Assembly: GCA_965224085.1 (NCBI GenBank) | Contig: CBDCYI010000011.1 | Coordinates: forward strand, 736,001 to 800,000 | Source: Candidatus Marinacidobacterales bacterium | GTDB taxonomy: Bacteria; Acidobacteriota; Vicinamibacteria; Marinacidobacterales; SMYC01 | Reading direction: 5' to 3' | Length of the DNA: 64,000 bases | Shown: one piece after another, positions 28,508 to 32,354 of the stretch | Numbering within the stretch: the stretch's first letter is position 1 | Layout of the letters: the number at the start of each line of letters is the position of its first letter | Program-made: the position numbers and the translations under genes | Notes under the pieces: generated by a model | Databases searched by the model: none | Seen by the model: only the letters and a program-made list of their open reading frames with translations | Told to the model about the DNA's origin: nothing

Positions 28508-28577
28508 ATGTCACTTGCTGCCGGCTCCCGCCTCGGCTCTTACGAGGTGGGCTCTGCGATCGGTGTCGGTGGTATGG
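28508..28577 (+). pseudogene. Ser/Thr protein kinase 5' fragment cut in the Gly-rich loop by the IS110 element
   Basis: MSLAAGSRLGSYEVGSAIGVGGM|, matching the RLGxYEI...GxGGMGEVY start of Hanks-type kinases. Confidence 0.85.
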
Positions 28578-28592
28578 ACTCCCCACGCCGGA

Positions 28593-29888
28593 TCAAGAGA
28601 AAACCTTCTTCGTAGGAATCATCGTCGATTCGCTTTTTGTTGTGGACGTCCGCGAGGGGTCGTAAAGAGTTCTTTGTCGAAGCATCGCCATGGCGATGGG
28701 TAGAATGCGGTCCATGACGCCTCTGAGAGCTCTGGCATGGCTGTGGCCCGCGTCGCGAAGCCGATCGTAGTGCTTTTTAAAGTGTGGGTCGCGAAGCACG
28801 GCAGTGCTGGCCCAATGATGGAGAGCGTTATTGAGGGGCAAAGAGCGAGCTCTCCTCATCAGGATAGTTGGTCGCAACTGACCGCGCTTGCCGCTTTTTT
28901 TCGTGACGGGTGCGATGCCGCTGAGAGTCCTGAAGGCTTTGAGATTTCGTAGCCGAATGGGGTCGTGGGCATAGCAGAGCACGGAGGCGAGCACGTAAGC
29001 ACCGACGCCGGGCAAAGAGGCAAGAATGGCAGCGTCGGAGCACTGCTTGTCGTTCAGTGCTTGCAAGCGCTTGAACCACTTCTCGAGATGCTGGTCGGAG
29101 GCACGACGATGTTGTCGAACGAGGAGCAACTGCTGAAGGAGCAGTTCGAGATGCTCAGAAGTAGCTTTGGTGGTTGCATGCGCGACTCGGAGTGGTTTTT
29201 GATTGAGGGTATCGAGGATCTGCTCGGGTTTTACGCGTCGGATGCGGTGTTTTTTAACGAGCGTCTCGATGGTGTGGCGGCTAAGAGAGTTGGGGCTGGA
29301 TTCGAAGAAGAGTTTTAGGAGCTCGCAGAAAAACGCGTCGAGAGCCTTATTCTTTGGCGCGAGCGAGACGAGGTGAGGCCAACAACGAGTAAGGAGTTCT
29401 CGGATCTGCGAGCTGAGGGCAACGTGGTTTTTGACAAGTTGGTCGCGGGTGCTCAACAGCCCGCGCATAGCAAGGATCTCCGGAGGTGGAAGTTGCAAGC
29501 GCTGAAAGCGGTGACCGTCGGTTCTGAGCGAATCGGCGAGAACGAAGGCGTCGCGCCGATCATCCTTGGCGCCGCTCATAGAATGCCGGTCGCGGAAACG
29601 GTCGACCTGCTTGGGATTGATGGAGAAAATGGCGATGGCGTTGTCAAGAAAGAGCTCGACGACGGCTCCATGAGGCTTTTCGATCGCCACTGCGATGCGC
29701 TCGGTGTCTTGCGTGGTCAGTTCCAGAAGCCAGCCGATCGTTTCTGAAAGTCCTTCGCGGCTATGAGGAAAGCCGCGCTCCCCCATAAATTGTCCCCTGG
29801 TATCGACCACGCTGGCCAAGTGAAGCCATTGGCCCAGGTCGACACCGACGAAGAAGTCGTAGTCGAGCTGATTCCTGGAAGAACTCAT
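28593..29888 (-). CDS. IS110-family DEDD recombinase/transposase (431 aa)
   Basis: FVGVD, AIEKPHG, AKDDRRDA (DEDD) and GIAPVTKKSG (catalytic Ser); stop lies inside the inverted repeat. Confidence 0.95.
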   Translation of the reverse strand: MSSSRNQLDYDFFVGVDLGQWLHLASVVDTRGQFMGERGFPHSREGLSETIGWLLELTTQDTERIAVAIEKPHGAVVELFLDNAIAIFSINPKQVDRFRDRHSMSGAKDDRRDAFVLADSLRTDGHRFQRLQLPPPEILAMRGLLSTRDQLVKNHVALSSQIRELLTRCWPHLVSLAPKNKALDAFFCELLKLFFESSPNSLSRHTIETLVKKHRIRRVKPEQILDTLNQKPLRVAHATTKATSEHLELLLQQLLLVRQHRRASDQHLEKWFKRLQALNDKQCSDAAILASLPGVGAYVLASVLCYAHDPIRLRNLKAFRTLSGIAPVTKKSGKRGQLRPTILMRRARSLPLNNALHHWASTAVLRDPHFKKHYDRLRDAGHSHARALRGVMDRILPIAMAMLRQRTLYDPSRTSTTKSESTMIPTKKVFS

Positions 29889-30083
29889 TGCCGTCAGCGC
29901 ATGTGATGTTTCATCGGCCCCTGTACCGGCGCTCGAAGCGCAACTCCCCATTGGATGTCCATCACAAGAAAATTGCCGGCACGCGTGTCCATACCGGGCG
30001 CTCGGAGCGCAGGGCGAAGTATGGCGTTGCCGGCAAGCTGCTGACGAAATCGAAAATAGTTCAAGCTCATCGTGAGATTTGCT
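29889..30083 (-). ncRNA. Putative bridge RNA (target-binding and donor-binding loops)
   Basis: Nested stems (29892-98/30040-46, 29973-81/30028-36, 29902-08/29960-66), two gcgct-N3-agcgc hairpins; loop segments match the junction (GGTATGGAC) and the element end (TGGGGAGT). Confidence 0.85.
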
Positions 30084-30500
30084 CTACCACTGCAATCGAA
30101 GCTGGCGCGCGATGCCACCAGCTCGTGCTGGTTTTTTTCTCGGTTGTTTCGGGCGAAGCACGTCTGCGAGTTTTTCTCGAAGGTAGCGAACATAAGGCGG
30201 GTCTAGATATTCACTTCGCACTTCCTCGAGCACAGGTGAAAAATAGCGAAGGGAGCGAATGGGTTGTAGTGGCTCCTCATGCTCTTGTAGCTCCCGACGA
30301 GCGCAACCCAGAAGTAGGGCGCACTCGAATTCGTATAACGGGACGCCCTGGCGGTAGAGTCGCGTCGCCATGAAGCGATCGTCGCGCCGTGGTCGCTCAG
30401 GTGTGTTCGGAATAGAAACATAGATATCCAAAACCGCCCGGACATAATCGTTTTCTGTTAGAGCGTCGCTCGTGAGCGGTTTATCACTGAGCTTCGACAT
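30084..30500 (-). CDS. IS110 accessory ORF B, hypothetical (138 aa)
   Basis: GGAGG RBS, overlaps the upstream ORF; YVRAVLDIY...IRSLRYFSPVLEEV. Confidence 0.75.
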   Translation of the reverse strand: MSKLSDKPLTSDALTENDYVRAVLDIYVSIPNTPERPRRDDRFMATRLYRQGVPLYEFECALLLGCARRELQEHEEPLQPIRSLRYFSPVLEEVRSEYLDPPYVRYLREKLADVLRPKQPRKKPARAGGIARQLRLQW

Positions 30501-30889
30501 CCATCCACCTCCCGCGTCCGCCGCAGATACAGCATTTGGCATATCCGAAACTGTCAAGCTTCGTTTTCATTGAAAGAACCATCGAGCTCCGTGACCGGAT
30601 CTGTTCTCTGATTCCTACATTGCCCGAGTTACCGACGTGAATGGAACCATGATCCGTTACTTTTTCTTGGTGTCGTCGATACTCACGTTGCCGGTCCGCA
30701 CAATCTCGACTGTCCTTCGACACTTTCTCGATCTTTGCGGTTGTAGCCGCGACACTTTATTAGGCCGGCATGATAAGAGCACGCTTTACCGCAGTAGCAG
30801 TGTCCACGGTCACAGCTCTTGCAGATGTAGAAGGCCTCTGAACAGTTACGACAAAAACGCTGGTACACAACGACTGGTTTGGTGGCCAT
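30484..30889 (-). pseudogene. IS110 accessory ORF A, Cys-rich putative Zn-binding protein with a 1-nt frameshift
   Basis: CRNC...ICKSCDRGHCYCGKAC; removing one base near 30710 continues RDCADRQREYRR...VTDHGS...CCICG. Confidence 0.7.
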
Positions 30890-30947
30890 TTGAGACTCAG
30901 CAAGCGCTGGACTATGGCGTTTTCTCTTGATCCGGCGTGGGGAGTCC

Positions 30948-31921
30948 ATTCCGTACGGATCCTCGTGATGGTACTCGAGCCGGTTGCGCTCGGGACATCG
31001 TCTGCCGTCGTGCGCGACAAACGTGCACTGTCCCCCATCTCGCACCCATACGAAACGTTTCACCGCGGCGGCGATGCCGCGCACACCCGGTGACGTGTCG
31101 GCGTCTTCGACATTCGTTCTCGGGTTCTTCGTTTTACCGAAACGCTTGGCTTCGAGCCGCTCGAGCTTTTCGCTCACCGCCGCGTCGATGACCGAAGCGA
31201 GGTCACTACCGGGAATGAGCGCCTCGAGTCGTTCGAGTTTGTCGCGAAGCTCGGCGCTCGCCGTGAATGTTACTTGATAGCGCGCCGGTGATAGCGGCGC
31301 CACGGTCGGACGTTTTTCAGGTGCTGTCTCACGTGCCTGTGGCGGCTCATTCTCACCCGGCTCACCCGGCTCACCCGGCTCACCCGGCTCACCGTGCGCC
31401 TCTGCTCTTTCTTCACGTTGCTCGTCCGACGGCTTGGAAGGCTTGGACGATCCGGACTGGGCTTTCGGTTGCGGCTTCTTTCGAATCTTCGGTGGAACAT
31501 CCGGTTTCGGAGCCCATTCCGCCACGAGCTCTTCGAGCTCGCGTTTGCTCTTGTGAGTGGCTCTTGCCAAGACCTCTTCGCCATTGGCCTCGGTGAGATG
31601 TTTCGCGATCACGGCGATGCCACACAAGTGAAGGCGTCCATCCTCGAGCATTGTGAGAAGCGCGGGAAATCTGCGTGATAGCCGGGCGGCGGTGATTCGC
31701 CGATAGGCTTGCGCTTCCGATAAATGCAAAACGTCCAAGCAAAAGCGGAACATGGACGGCGCGGCTTCGCGAGCAAAGAGACGACGCGCATCGACCGCAG
31801 CGATATGCGCGACGAGCACGGCCTCGCGACACCGCGACTCCTTGAGGGCGTCCGATAGTCGAACAAGAAGCTCGTCATCCGATAATGCTGAGAGCCATTT
31901 CAATGTGTCCTTTGTAGTCAT
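30948..31921 (-). pseudogene. DUF222-like/HNH endonuclease truncated inside the HNH motif by the IS110 end
   Basis: LSDDELL...LSEAQAYRRI...VWVRDGGQCTF...RC....LEYHHEDPYGM|. Confidence 0.85.
31352..31393. repeat. 9-bp tandem repeat (ctcacccgg)x4.7 encoding GEP
   Basis: Direct read of the sequence. Confidence 0.9.
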
Positions 31922-32354
31922 GCTTTCTTATAACATGGACTTTTTGGACGCTCACCGCTAGCGAGTAACTAACACTATCGGATAGAAACGCTTTCGAAGT
32001 CTTCTTGAACGAAAGAGCACCGCTGTCGCTTCGTCAACGTGGGCAGAGACCCTATCAGCGCGAACGCAAGCTCTTTTTTCAAATCGCGTCGAGAACATTG
32101 TCAAGACAAAAATGAGCTCAACGCAATTTTTTTTTCAACTCTTCCCGGACAGAGCTGGAAACGATGCCCCCGCCCGCGATCTTGTAGCTTGCGTCGGTCG
32201 GGTAAGCAGTTGTGAATTTCCCCTTCGGCGCGGTAACGGGAGAACGGAGGTCGGATGATCAAAGTTCACTCGGGGCAAGTCCGCTAGCACTCGAAAAAAG
32301 CCGCCATCGTCGGGAACTCCTTGGTAGAATAAAAGTATTCAATCGGTAAGAAGA

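What the first reader, a model, noticed from the sequence alone, without database searches (positions are those of the whole stretch)
28560..30965. Both element ends are right-target junctions from different genes, suggesting a symmetric donor that rearranges DNA
Seen: read outward, the ends are GGGGAGT-CC-ATACC (kinase, GGM|) and GGGGAGT-CC-ATTCC (HNH gene, PYGM|, 6/7 to the guide). The 3' halves of both genes are absent. The right donor guide GUACAGG (29920-29926) predicts donor GGGGAGT-CC-TGTAC, which is at neither end. Inference: if the junction is the palindrome ggggagtCCtgtacaGGactcccc, an inserted copy keeps a complete inverted donor that can attack a second target, causing inversion or deletion. 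Alternatives: recombination between two copies, assembly collapse, or ccgtacggaat (30948-30958) being a degenerate element end. TTGATC in the IR lies 17 bp from the predicted TAC..., consistent with a circle-junction promoter.
Basis: inference. Interest (0 to 1): 0.7.

Follow-up and report, generated by a model that had tools for sequence, protein, structure and literature searches.

The report
Truncated kinase-targeting IS110 copy, rearranged
This is a damaged copy of a bridge-RNA-guided jumping gene that normally lands in the glycine-loop codons of protein kinase genes; its odd mirror-image ends come from a deletion that fused it to the tip of a second copy, not from a symmetric way of moving.

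Summary
Window 28571-28604 and 30919-30952 form a 34-nt inverted repeat with 1 mismatch. Both outer junctions read GGGGAGT-CC-AT(A/T)CC. One abuts a 23-codon kinase start (…GVGGM|), the other a DUF222/HNH-like gene cut at …PYGM|.

The symmetric-donor reading does not hold. The genome carries at least 6 further full or nearly full copies in two subfamilies, A and B (~86% identical). All run 261-290 bp past window 30918 and end …GCAAGCGTACAGG|, next to kinase codons G(E/D/V)VY. Intact elements are therefore asymmetric: ACTCCCC… at one end, …GTACAGG at the other, with a GG core.

The window copy lacks the last 261 bp of its left end. It is fused, with 0-1 nt of microhomology, to an inverted 27-nt right-end tip of a second insertion. 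The best explanation is an illegitimate deletion between two convergent copies.

The underlying element is more interesting: an IS110-family bridge-RNA element of 2.5-2.6 kb with two conserved accessory ORFs. It targets GGNATGG|GCGANGT, the GxGGMG(E)V codons, in 13 of 13 metagenome loci, and its guide covaries with its target. No read-level check of the junction was possible.

The parts
28508..28577 (+). 5' stub of a Ser/Thr protein kinase gene (23 codons, …GVGGM, plus the first G of the next codon). GGTAT is at 28571-28575 and the core GG at 28576-28577.
   Evidence: The N-terminal pattern L..G..LG.YE….G.GGM matches the kinase genes hit by other copies. Their 3' halves match Pkinase from profile position 13.
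28578..30918 (-). A-type IS110-family element, 2341 bp, lacking the terminal 261 bp of its left end (LE). An intact A-type copy is 2602 bp.
   Evidence: It is 99.7% identical to G000:C5:1762827-1765185, a copy that runs on for another 261 bp to …GCAAGCGTACAGG.
28578..28604 (+). Right-end (RE) terminal 27-mer ACTCCCC…GAGAAAAC. It forms the left arm of the inverted repeat and overlaps the last transposase codons and the stop.
   Evidence: The genome has 11 copies of this 27-mer, all preceded by …ATGG.
28593..29888 (-). IS110-family DEDD recombinase, 431 aa, intact.
   Evidence: Pfam PF01548 (E 5.7e-30) and PF02371 (E 2.9e-11). NCBIfam 'IS110 family RNA-guided transposase', 161.8 bits against a cut-off of 140.
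29894..30049 (-). Bridge RNA. The target-binding loop lies within 29973-30036 (guides ACUUCGCCC at 30012-30020 and GGUAUGG at 29989-29995). The donor-binding loop lies within 29902-29966 (guides GGGGAGU at 29943-29949 and GUACAGG at 29920-29926).
   Evidence: A covariance model hits 53 of 60 loci of distant relatives just upstream of the recombinase gene. 31 of 34 pairs covary. Rfam has no match.
30084..30500 (-). Accessory ORF of 138 aa (predicted five-helix protein), conserved in the subfamily.
   Evidence: It falls in a family of 180 clusters, all 'hypothetical', with no Pfam match.
30484..30892 (-). Cys-rich accessory ORF. It is intact (137 aa) in B-type copies but frameshifted in A-type copies into a 69-aa piece (30683-30892) and a 79-aa piece (30484-30723).
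30919..30947 (+). Inverted 27-nt RE tip (30919-30945) plus core CC (30946-30947). This is the remnant of a second insertion and the right arm of the inverted repeat.
   Evidence: The internal joint at 30918|30919 is found nowhere else in the genome.
30948..31921 (-). 5' part (325 codons) of a DUF222-family gene with an HNH-like motif, cut at …EYHHEDPYGM|. In this rearranged copy it reads in frame into the 69-aa Cys-rich ORF piece, giving a 412-aa ORF at 30683-31921.
31922..32313 (.). Upstream region of the DUF222 repeat unit (paralogue similarity reaches 32157) plus about 150 unique bp. Synteny with same-genus relatives resumes at about 32314.

Best explanation
**The element (shown from sequence).** It belongs to the IS110 group and works by a bridge RNA. 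It encodes a DEDD recombinase. Immediately upstream lies a two-loop bridge RNA.
- The target loop guides match GGNAT-GG-GCGANGT, the codons for the G-G-M-G-(E/D)-V part of the kinase glycine-rich loop.
- The donor loop guides match the element's own two tips, …GTACA-GG-ACTCCCC….
- Intact copies are 2602 bp (A-type) or about 2639 bp (B-type), asymmetric, and flanked by the GG core on both sides.

**Inferred from the family, not shown here.** The element leaves as a circle whose RE-LE joint forms both the donor site and a promoter (TTGATC-17-TACGCT). The recombinase, guided by the bridge RNA, then inserts that circle at a matching target.

**The window copy (inferred).**
1. An A-type copy inserted at GGTATGG| in a kinase gene downstream of the creatininase-like gene.
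2. A second copy (A- or B-type) inserted in the opposite orientation at GGAATGG| in a convergent DUF222/HNH-like gene. By paralogue sequence, only the GGNATGG side of that site matches the guides, so this was a one-sided ('half-match') off-target hit.
3. An illegitimate deletion with 0-1 nt of microhomology then removed everything between the two copies. It took the last 261 bp of the first copy's LE, the 3' halves of both genes, whatever lay between them, and all but 27 nt of the second copy.

**Consequences.** The remnant has two RE-type (LD-RT) junctions in mirror image and no LE tip. It cannot form the donor joint and should be immobile. It still carries an intact recombinase gene and bridge RNA, identical to those of the mobile A-type copy.
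For: **Intact copies are asymmetric.**
- 7 loci carry both ends. All continue past window 30918 and end …GCAAGCGTACAGG|G.
- The genome has 11 right-end tips but 9 left-end tips. There are 4 orphan right ends (2 of them in this window) and 2 orphan left ends, so rearranged copies are common here.

**The target is the kinase glycine loop.**
- 9 of 11 right-end flanks read GGNATGG and 11 of 11 read ATGG.
- 5 of 9 left-end flanks encode G(E/D/V)VY. Flank ORFs match Pkinase from profile position 13.
- 13 of 13 metagenome loci end in G.GGM-type codons, one of them GSVGM with ATGT in place of ATGG. 7 of 7 loci that hold a left end are followed by GEVY.
- The relatives L042 and L043 also sit in kinase genes.

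**The guide covaries with the target.** At the N of GGNATGG the guide reads:
- A-type GGUAUGG; targets GGTATGG in 2 of 3 copies.
- B-type GGAAUGG; targets GGAATGG in 3 of 7 copies.
- L042 GGGAUGG; target GGGATGG.
The other target guide also changes between lineages, while the donor loop is invariant, as are the element tips.

**The RNA is conserved.** 53 of 60 distant loci have a full-length model hit just upstream of the recombinase gene. 88.7% of cells are paired, against 31-36% with slid partners, and 31 of 34 pairs have double changes. The alignment was fitted to the model, which favours the structure.

**The second insertion was canonical.** The DUF222 junction is GGAATGG|ACTCCCC, at exactly the same phase as all other insertions.

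**This is not a large-scale mis-join.** Window sequence up to 28499 and from 32314 onward lies about 410-440 bp apart in two same-genus genomes (G002, G003). Those genomes keep a kinase C-terminal remnant at that spot.

**The deleted parts are gone.** No DUF222 3' half sits next to a left-end tip. No match to the relatives' kinase remnant was found beyond one 48-nt match at 79%.
Against: - No reads could be laid across 30918|30919.
- The ancestral arrangement (kinase and DUF222 gene convergent neighbours, each with an insertion) is inferred, not observed. The locus differs in every relative examined: G002 and G003 keep only a kinase 3' remnant, and G004 has unrelated genes.
- The DUF222 family is multi-copy and dispersed in the genus, so its former position is unknown.
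- The subfamily of the second copy is undecided. The 27-mer is identical in A and B. Base 30918 (C) fits either the A-type internal base or the 28th base of a B-type tip.
- A joint with 0-1 nt of homology is uninformative about the mechanism.
- The two mirror-image copies could equally have arisen from one copy by replicative intramolecular transposition before the deletion.
Confidence: 0.68

Rival explanations
1. A single aberrant recombinase event produced the structure. The resident copy's RE junction (LD-RT) was transferred on one strand to the half-matching DUF222 site. The second step failed because the other half of the site does not match. The broken intermediate was then repaired by end joining or template switching, leaving the inverted 27-nt tip and deleting the LE.
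For: - A preprint on CazIS110-1 (10.1101/2025.10.25.684509; abstract and section 8 read) reports direct top-strand transfer of LT-RD or LD-RT junctions to a new target in two separate steps.
- A preprint on IS621 (10.64898/2026.08.31.748434; abstract and section 8 read) reports recombination at sites that match only one arm.
- By paralogue sequence, the DUF222 site matches only the GGNATGG arm.
- The bridge RNA has a terminator-like hairpin plus U-tract after the target loop. This could yield the truncated target-loop RNA that the first preprint describes.
Against: - The internal joint (30918|30919) lies at neither a core nor a guide-matching sequence.
- A reciprocal exchange between these two inverted sites would flip the element and detach it from the kinase stub, which is not what is seen.
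- The published one-ended products are single-strand junctions seen in vitro and by PCR, not fixed genomic structures.
- No second example occurs among the 11 right-end tips of this genome or the 13 metagenome loci.
Confidence: 0.12
2. The joint is an assembly or consensus artefact, for example a chimeric long read or a collapsed repeat. The organism would then really have an ordinary full-length copy in the kinase gene and, elsewhere, an insertion in the DUF222 gene.
For: - The element is a 2.3-2.6 kb repeat that is 100% identical among A-type copies over most of its length, a classic site for mis-joins.
- No read-level check was possible.
- In metagenome contigs, pairs of loci share one flank but not the other (L104/L112 and L108/L114). 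This may reflect chimeric assembly across this repeat.
Against: - The breakpoint is not at a repeat boundary.
- The 27-nt inverted tip joined to position 2341 of the element exists nowhere else in the genome, so a simple collapse cannot create it.
- Both outer flanks belong to one syntenic locus in relatives.
- The missing left end with a kinase 3' half, and the rest of the second copy with a DUF222 3' half, are not found in the 12 contigs. The genome is 95.3% complete.
Confidence: 0.08
3. One reading: the element has a palindromic donor junction (GGGGAGT-CC-TGTACA-GG-ACTCCCC). An inserted copy therefore keeps a complete inverted donor and can attack a second target, making both ends right-target junctions by design.
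For: Both ends of the window copy are LD-RT-type junctions from different genes. The bridge RNA right donor guide GUACAGG is present.
Against: - Intact copies in this genome, in a second genus (L042) and in 7 metagenome loci all have one ACTCCCC end and one GTACAGG end.
- The left end continues CCTGTACGCTTGC…, not the palindrome.
- Apart from the window copy, none of the loci examined repeats the inverted tip.
Confidence: 0.02

Closest known systems
IS621 and other IS110-group bridge-RNA elements (Durrant et al. 2024, PMC11208160; passages read)
   Same: - DEDD RuvC-like domain plus Transposase_20 domain.
- Short RE (15 nt after the stop codon) and long LE.
- A two-internal-loop ncRNA in the LE whose first loop varies with the target while the second is conserved with the element tips.
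- A 2-nt core repeated at both junctions.
- A sigma-70-like hexamer pair that would be assembled across the RE-LE joint.
   Different: - The LE is about 1.3 kb instead of a few hundred bp, and holds two conserved protein-coding ORFs.
- The bridge RNA starts about 1.1 kb from the LE tip instead of at the junction promoter.
- The core is CC/GG rather than CT.
- The natural target is a protein-coding motif of a gene family, not a REP-type repeat.
- No experiment has been done on this element.
IS1111-group elements with family-wide repeated targets (IS4321/IS5075 at Tn21 inverted repeats; IS1111-attC elements). I saw these only as citations and text in PMC11208160.
   Same: Orientation-specific insertion at one fixed position of a sequence that recurs many times in a genome.
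   Different: IS1111 elements have 7-17 bp subterminal inverted repeats and carry the bridge RNA in the RE. Here the RNA is in the LE and intact copies have no long inverted repeats. The 34-nt inverted repeat is peculiar to this one rearranged copy.
Half-match and direct-transfer recombination by IS110 recombinases (preprints 10.64898/2026.08.31.748434 and 10.1101/2025.10.25.684509; abstracts and one results section each read)
   Same: The DUF222 insertion site matches the guides on one arm only (GGAATGG). The window holds two LD-RT-type junctions.
   Different: Those reports describe in vitro, PCR or insertion-read products of IS621 and CazIS110-1. Nothing in them predicts an inverted 27-nt tip joined to an internal position of the element.
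Deletions and rearrangements between dispersed IS copies (general knowledge of IS biology)
   Same: Flanks from two different genes, loss of the DNA in between, and orphan ends elsewhere in the same genome (4 orphan right ends and 2 orphan left ends).
   Different: The joint is not a homologous crossover between two copies. It is an illegitimate joint between inverted copies that leaves only 27 nt of one of them.

Membership tests
IS110 family (bridge recombinase elements) | [quoted passage not shown] | tested here: met
   PF01548 E 5.7e-30 (residues 35-192) and PF02371 E 2.9e-11. NCBIfam NF033542 'IS110 family RNA-guided transposase', 161.8 bits against a cut-off of 140.
IS110 family (bridge recombinase elements) | Structured ncRNA with two internal loops encoded in a non-coding end next to the recombinase gene | tested here: met
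   A covariance model built from 4 copies hits 53 of 60 distant loci full-length on the recombinase strand, ending within about 200 nt upstream of the match. 31 of 34 pairs have double changes and 88.7% of cells are paired, against 31-36% in slid controls (the alignment was fitted to the model). No Rfam family matched.
IS110 family (bridge recombinase elements) | Loop guides complementary to the target (both arms) and to the joined element ends (both arms) | tested here: met
   ACUUCGCCC and GGUAUGG match GG-GCGAAGT and GGTAT-GG. GGGGAGU and GUACAGG match the RE and LE tips. The N position of GGNAUGG covaries with the insertion sites of the A-type, B-type and L042 lineages.
IS110 family (bridge recombinase elements) | Same short core at both junctions; insertion otherwise scarless and orientation-specific | tested here: met
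   Every complete copy shows …ATGG|ACTCCCC … GTACAGG|G…. The kinase reading frame resumes exactly (GxGGM|G(E/D/V)VY).
IS110 family (bridge recombinase elements) | Circular intermediate with a promoter rebuilt across the RE-LE joint | not testable with these tools
   Only sequence compatibility can be shown: TTGATC-N17-TACGCT in the A and B types and TTGACC-N17-TACGCT in L042. No circle or RNA data are available.
IS110 group, as opposed to the IS1111 group | Long LE holding the bridge RNA, short RE, and no 7-17 bp subterminal inverted repeats | tested here: met
   The RE is 15 nt beyond the stop codon, the LE is about 1.3 kb, and the RNA is in the LE. Intact copies have no long inverted repeat.
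Transposon with terminal inverted repeats, or symmetric (palindromic) donor | The same inverted terminal sequence at both ends of every intact copy | tested here: not met
   None of the 6 other full or nearly full copies in the genome, and none of the 13 metagenome loci, has the inverted tip at the far end. All 9 left-end tips read …GCAAGCGTACAGG (one of them with a 1-nt deletion).
DUF222 / HNH endonuclease genes (the right-flank gene) | DUF222 N-terminal domain and an HNH nuclease motif | tested here: inconclusive
   The window fragment scores 20.2 bits for DUF222, below the 24.4 cut-off. The intact paralogue scores 29.3 bits, above it. No Pfam HNH hit at E <= 0.1. There is only a weak match to the HNH region of IscB (E 0.018) plus the C…HH…N…C.CHN motif seen by eye.

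The most novel reading that the evidence does not exclude
The remnant could be a domesticated, invertible cassette. Two identical LD-core-RT half-sites in mirror image flank an intact recombinase gene and bridge RNA. If this enzyme can recombine on half-matches, as reported for IS621, it could flip the 2.3-kb segment between the kinase promoter and the DUF222 promoter. In the present orientation the DUF222 ORF reads in frame into the element. More broadly, the subfamily may be a three-gene IS110 variant whose two conserved accessory proteins control guided insertion into kinase genes, reshaping the kinase repertoire of these Acidobacteriota.
Probability: 0.06. Interest if true: 0.75.

Novelty: new variant of a known kind. 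Interest (0 to 1): 0.4.

Why it matters
**For the finding itself.** The mirror-image ends are debris from a rearrangement, not a new transposition mode. No symmetric-donor mechanism should be built on them.

**For the field.** The underlying element is a useful natural case.
- Its bridge RNA is programmed against the codons of a conserved protein motif, the kinase glycine-rich loop GxGGMG(E)V. That motif offers about 94 GGNGGNATGGGN sites in this genome alone.
- It is found at that site in 13 of 13 metagenome loci and in at least two genera.
- The single-base difference between the A and B guides is mirrored in their insertion sites. This is natural evidence of reprogramming within one genome.
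- It carries two conserved accessory ORFs of unknown fold inside the left end, which is unusual for IS110.
- I found no description of kinase-loop targeting in three literature searches. Subscription journals and ISfinder were not searched.

Tried and rejected
- **Read support.** No read evidence exists either way, and the word shares say nothing specific about the joint.
- **Rfam.** No family matched the full-length A-type locus at E <= 1.
- **Thermodynamics.** The fold of the bridge RNA region alone is not exceptional (z = -1.30). The case for the RNA rests on covariation.
- **Synteny to recover the ancestral locus.** G002 and G003 keep only a kinase C-terminal remnant, and G004 has unrelated genes, so the pre-rearrangement order could not be read.
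- **Orphan halves.** C9:747940 is an A-type left-end orphan next to a short, frameshifted kinase remnant. It overlaps the window copy (element positions 1774-2359), so it is not the missing piece. Several DUF222 C-terminal fragments exist, but none adjoins an element end.
- **Pseudo-target at the breakpoint.** ACTATGGC at 30911-30918 resembles the target. However, the joint has the inner side of the 27-mer facing it, the opposite of what an insertion there would give, so this was rejected.
- **Second guide in the missing LE.** The A-type stretch CCAGUACAGGUGG there is not conserved in B-type copies or in L042, so this was rejected.
- **Wider clade.** None of 38 loci with about 31-43% identical recombinases has a G.GGM-type peptide beside the RE (a crude motif test). 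Kinase targeting seems limited to this subfamily.
- **Accessory proteins.** No significant match in Pfam or NCBIfam. The Atlas gave only unnamed clusters. AlphaFold2 models (pLDDT 77.5 and 73.0) had no PDB match at E <= 0.001.
- **Earlier notes of this scan.** Nothing relevant.

Full report
**1. What is in the sequence**

The window is G000:C11:736001-800000. Between 28571 and 30952 lies a segment bounded by a 34-nt inverted repeat with one mismatch. The arms are at 28571-28604 and 30919-30952.

The segment carries, all on the minus strand:
- An IS110-family recombinase gene at 28593-29888. Pfam gives PF01548 and PF02371. NCBIfam gives 'IS110 family RNA-guided transposase', 161.8 bits against a cut-off of 140.
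- A structured 5' region at 29894-30049.
- Two further ORFs.

Read outward, the two junctions are GGGGAGT-CC-ATACC and GGGGAGT-CC-ATTCC. The left flank is a 23-codon gene start ending …GVGGM. The right flank is the first 325 codons of a DUF222-family gene ending …EYHHEDPYGM. Its paralogues continue GGDRSAKNIRL.C.CHN.

**2. Intact copies settle the anatomy**

BLAST of 28560-30965 against the organism's own genome finds two subfamilies.
- A-type includes the window copy. A second copy, at C5, matches at 99.7% identity.
- B-type is about 86% identical. There are four full copies plus variants.

Every copy that reaches window position 30918 continues beyond it. A-type copies run on for 261 bp and B-type copies for about 290 bp. 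All end …CTTC(C/G)GCAAGCGTACAGG|.

A motif census counts 11 tips of the ACTCCCC type and 9 tips of the GTACAGG type. Seven loci carry both. The intact element is therefore asymmetric, 2602 bp (A) or about 2639 bp (B), and bounded by GG on each side.

The window copy stops 261 bp short of its left end. At that point it is joined to GTTTTCTCTTGATCCGGCGTGGGGAGT-CC. This is the reverse complement of the first 27 nt of the element plus the core.

**3. The target is the kinase glycine loop**

- Flanks of the ACTCCCC tip read …GGNATGG in 9 of 11 cases and …ATGG in 11 of 11.
- Flanks of the GTACAGG tip begin GCGANGT-like and encode G(E/D/V)VY in 5 of 9 cases.
- ORFs that start at the junction match Pfam Pkinase from profile position 13 of 263.
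- A 61%-identical element in another genus (L042 = G009) splits a kinase-TPR gene at …GAGGM|GEVYRARD….
- A scan of metagenome contigs for the element tip returned 13 loci. All 13 flanks encode a G.GGM-type loop (one reads GSVGM). All 7 loci that also hold the other tip resume with GEVY.
- The genome holds about 94 GGNGGNATGGGN sites.
- A crude motif test found no such flank in 38 loci whose recombinases are about 31-43% identical. Kinase targeting seems specific to this subfamily.

**4. The bridge RNA**

The 156 nt upstream of the recombinase gene fold into two stem-enclosed internal loops. Each loop is capped by the same small hairpin, GCGCU-NNN-AGCGC.

- Loop 1 carries ACUUCGCCC. This is complementary to the plus-strand GG-GCGAAGT on the 3' side of the kinase site.
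- Loop 1 also carries GGUAUGG. This is identical to the plus-strand GGTAT-GG on the 5' side, so it pairs with the other strand.
- Loop 2 carries GGGGAGU and GUACAGG, which relate in the same way to the two element tips.

Among four lineages (A-type, B-type, L042, L043), the variable columns are the loop-1 guide positions. Loop 2 and the element tips are invariant.

At the N of GGNAUGG:
- A-type has U, with sites GGTATGG in 2 of 3 copies.
- B-type has A, with sites GGAATGG in 3 of 7 copies.
- L042 has G, with site GGGATGG.

A covariance model built from these four sequences gives full-length hits on the recombinase strand just upstream of the gene in 53 of 60 loci of distant relatives. On that alignment, 31 of 34 pairs show compensatory changes. 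88.7% of cells pair, against 31-36% when partners are slid. The alignment is fitted to the model and includes 3 weak minus-strand rows, both of which should be kept in mind.

Rfam has no matching family.

These features are those described for IS110-group bridge RNAs in Durrant et al. 2024 (PMC11208160; passages read): a long LE holding the RNA, a short RE, a variable first loop and a conserved second loop.

The hexamers TTGATC and TACGCT would lie 17 nt apart across the joined ends. L042 has TTGACC and TACGCT at the same spacing. This is compatible with the junction promoter of the family. It remains an inference.

**5. Why the symmetric-donor idea fails**

But the left end continues CCTGTACGCTTGC… in every intact copy. 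There is no palindrome.

Only the window copy has an inverted tip. None of the 6 other full or nearly full copies and none of the 13 metagenome loci has one.

The stretch ccgtacggaat is simply the P-Y-G(M) codons shared by the DUF222 paralogues.

**6. How the window structure most likely arose**

Both outer junctions are canonical, in the same phase as all other insertions. So two site-specific insertions occurred, or one insertion followed by a replicative copy. They occurred in opposite orientations, one in the kinase gene and one in the DUF222 gene.

Judged from paralogues, the DUF222 site matches the guides only on the GGAATGG arm. That arm is 7 of 7 to the B guide and 6 of 7 to the A guide. 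One-arm ('half-match') insertion has been reported for IS621 (preprint 10.64898/2026.08.31.748434; abstract and section 8 read).

The internal joint …GGACTATGGC|GTTTTCTC… lies at neither a core nor a guide-like sequence. It shares 0 nt of homology if the tip came from an A-type copy, or 1 nt if from a B-type copy. Base 30918 fits either, so the subfamily of the second copy is undecided.

The simplest path is an illegitimate deletion between two convergent copies. It removed:
- the first copy's last 261 bp;
- both gene 3' halves and any spacer;
- all but 27 nt of the second copy.

Supporting points:
- Neither 3' half is found next to an element tip anywhere in the 12 contigs.
- The genome holds other orphan ends: 4 right-end and 2 left-end orphans in total.
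- One of these orphans is cut by a roughly 155-bp repeat present in more than 50 copies.

The outer flanks belong together. In the same-genus genomes G002 and G003, sequence matching the window up to 28499 and from 32314 onward is separated by only about 410-440 bp. That interval contains the C-terminal remnant of a kinase with a beta-propeller tail. This argues against a large-scale mis-join, and it shows that a kinase gene once lay at this position. G004 has unrelated genes there, so the locus is a variable spot.

**7. What remains open**

- I could not test the joint with reads.
- A single-step aberrant recombinase event cannot be excluded. An example is one-ended LD-RT transfer of the kind described for CazIS110-1 (preprint 10.1101/2025.10.25.684509, section 8). 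It does not predict the observed internal joint.
- The remnant has two identical half-sites in mirror image around an intact recombinase gene and bridge RNA. Whether they can recombine and flip the segment is untested. I give that a low probability.

**8. Extras about the element**

Between the left-end tip and the bridge RNA lie two ORFs.
- **Cys-rich protein, about 137 aa.** Its invariant Cys residues, in the deeper 39-sequence alignment, are at 25, 28, 35, 122 and 125, with 18 and 39 nearly invariant. It is intact in B-type copies but frameshifted in A-type copies.
- **138-aa protein.** It is predicted to be a five-helix bundle.

Both are retained at about 35% identity in divergent metagenome copies. 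L042 lacks the second. They belong to families of 98 and 180 clusters, all unnamed and without Pfam domains. The AlphaFold2 models have no PDB match at E <= 0.001.

In the rearranged window copy, the DUF222 ORF runs in frame into the first Cys-rich piece (412-aa ORF). The conserved hairpin-rich first 261 bp of the left end are gone.

**9. Verdict**

- The bridge-RNA reading and the predicted donor are confirmed.
- The symmetric-donor inference is not supported.
- The feature is a rearranged, probably immobile copy of an IS110-group element that represents a new variant of a known kind. Its distinguishing traits are a coding-motif target and three genes.

Interest is moderate. It rests on the element family rather than on the mirror-image ends.

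Noticed in passing
window 29967-29990 (minus strand); L002 2917-2938: The 3' side of the target-binding stem is followed by CAAUUUUCUU and scores as a terminator-like site. It could produce a target-loop-only RNA like the truncated species described for CazIS110-1.
   Followed up: partly
window 30683-31921 (minus strand): The DUF222 5' part, the 27-nt tip and the first piece of the Cys-rich ORF form one continuous 412-aa ORF. The element's genes may therefore be transcribed, and partly translated, from the DUF222 promoter.
   Followed up: no
window 30084-30892; L004 3019-3829: Two accessory ORFs lie inside the IS110 left end: a Cys-rich protein of about 137 aa and a helical protein of 138 aa. 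Both are conserved down to about 35% identity in metagenome copies. Their families have 98 and 180 clusters, with no name, no Pfam match and no PDB fold match.
   Followed up: partly
window 31352-31396: A 9-nt tandem repeat, CTCACCCGG x4, encodes (GEP)n inside the DUF222 gene. This stretch also tripped the read laying filter.
   Followed up: no
G000:C4:1703637-1703792 and more than 50 other places in G000 (none in the window): A repeat of about 155 bp, 98-100% identical across copies and MITE-like. One copy truncates a B-type element at element position 627.
   Followed up: no
L104 vs L112; L108 vs L114 (metagenome contigs): L104 and L112 share an identical kinase 5' flank but have different kinase 3' flanks. 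L108 and L114 show the reverse. This reflects either recombination between element copies in different kinase genes or chimeric short-read contigs across the repeat.
   Followed up: no
L039 (G002) and L040 (G003), the roughly 410-440 bp between the matches to window 28499 and 32314: Same-genus relatives keep only the C-terminal remnant of a kinase with a beta-propeller tail right after the creatininase-like gene. G004 has CapA-like genes there. The locus is a rearrangement hot spot across the genus.
   Followed up: partly
window 30953-32157; G001-G004: The DUF222 gene with about 240 bp of upstream DNA is a dispersed repeat unit in this genus (28 matches in G001). G000 holds many decayed fragments of it.
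   Followed up: partly
G000 genome-wide: One perfect, unoccupied A-type target (GGTATGGGCGAAGT) exists. About 94 sites fit GGNGGNATGGGN.
   Followed up: no
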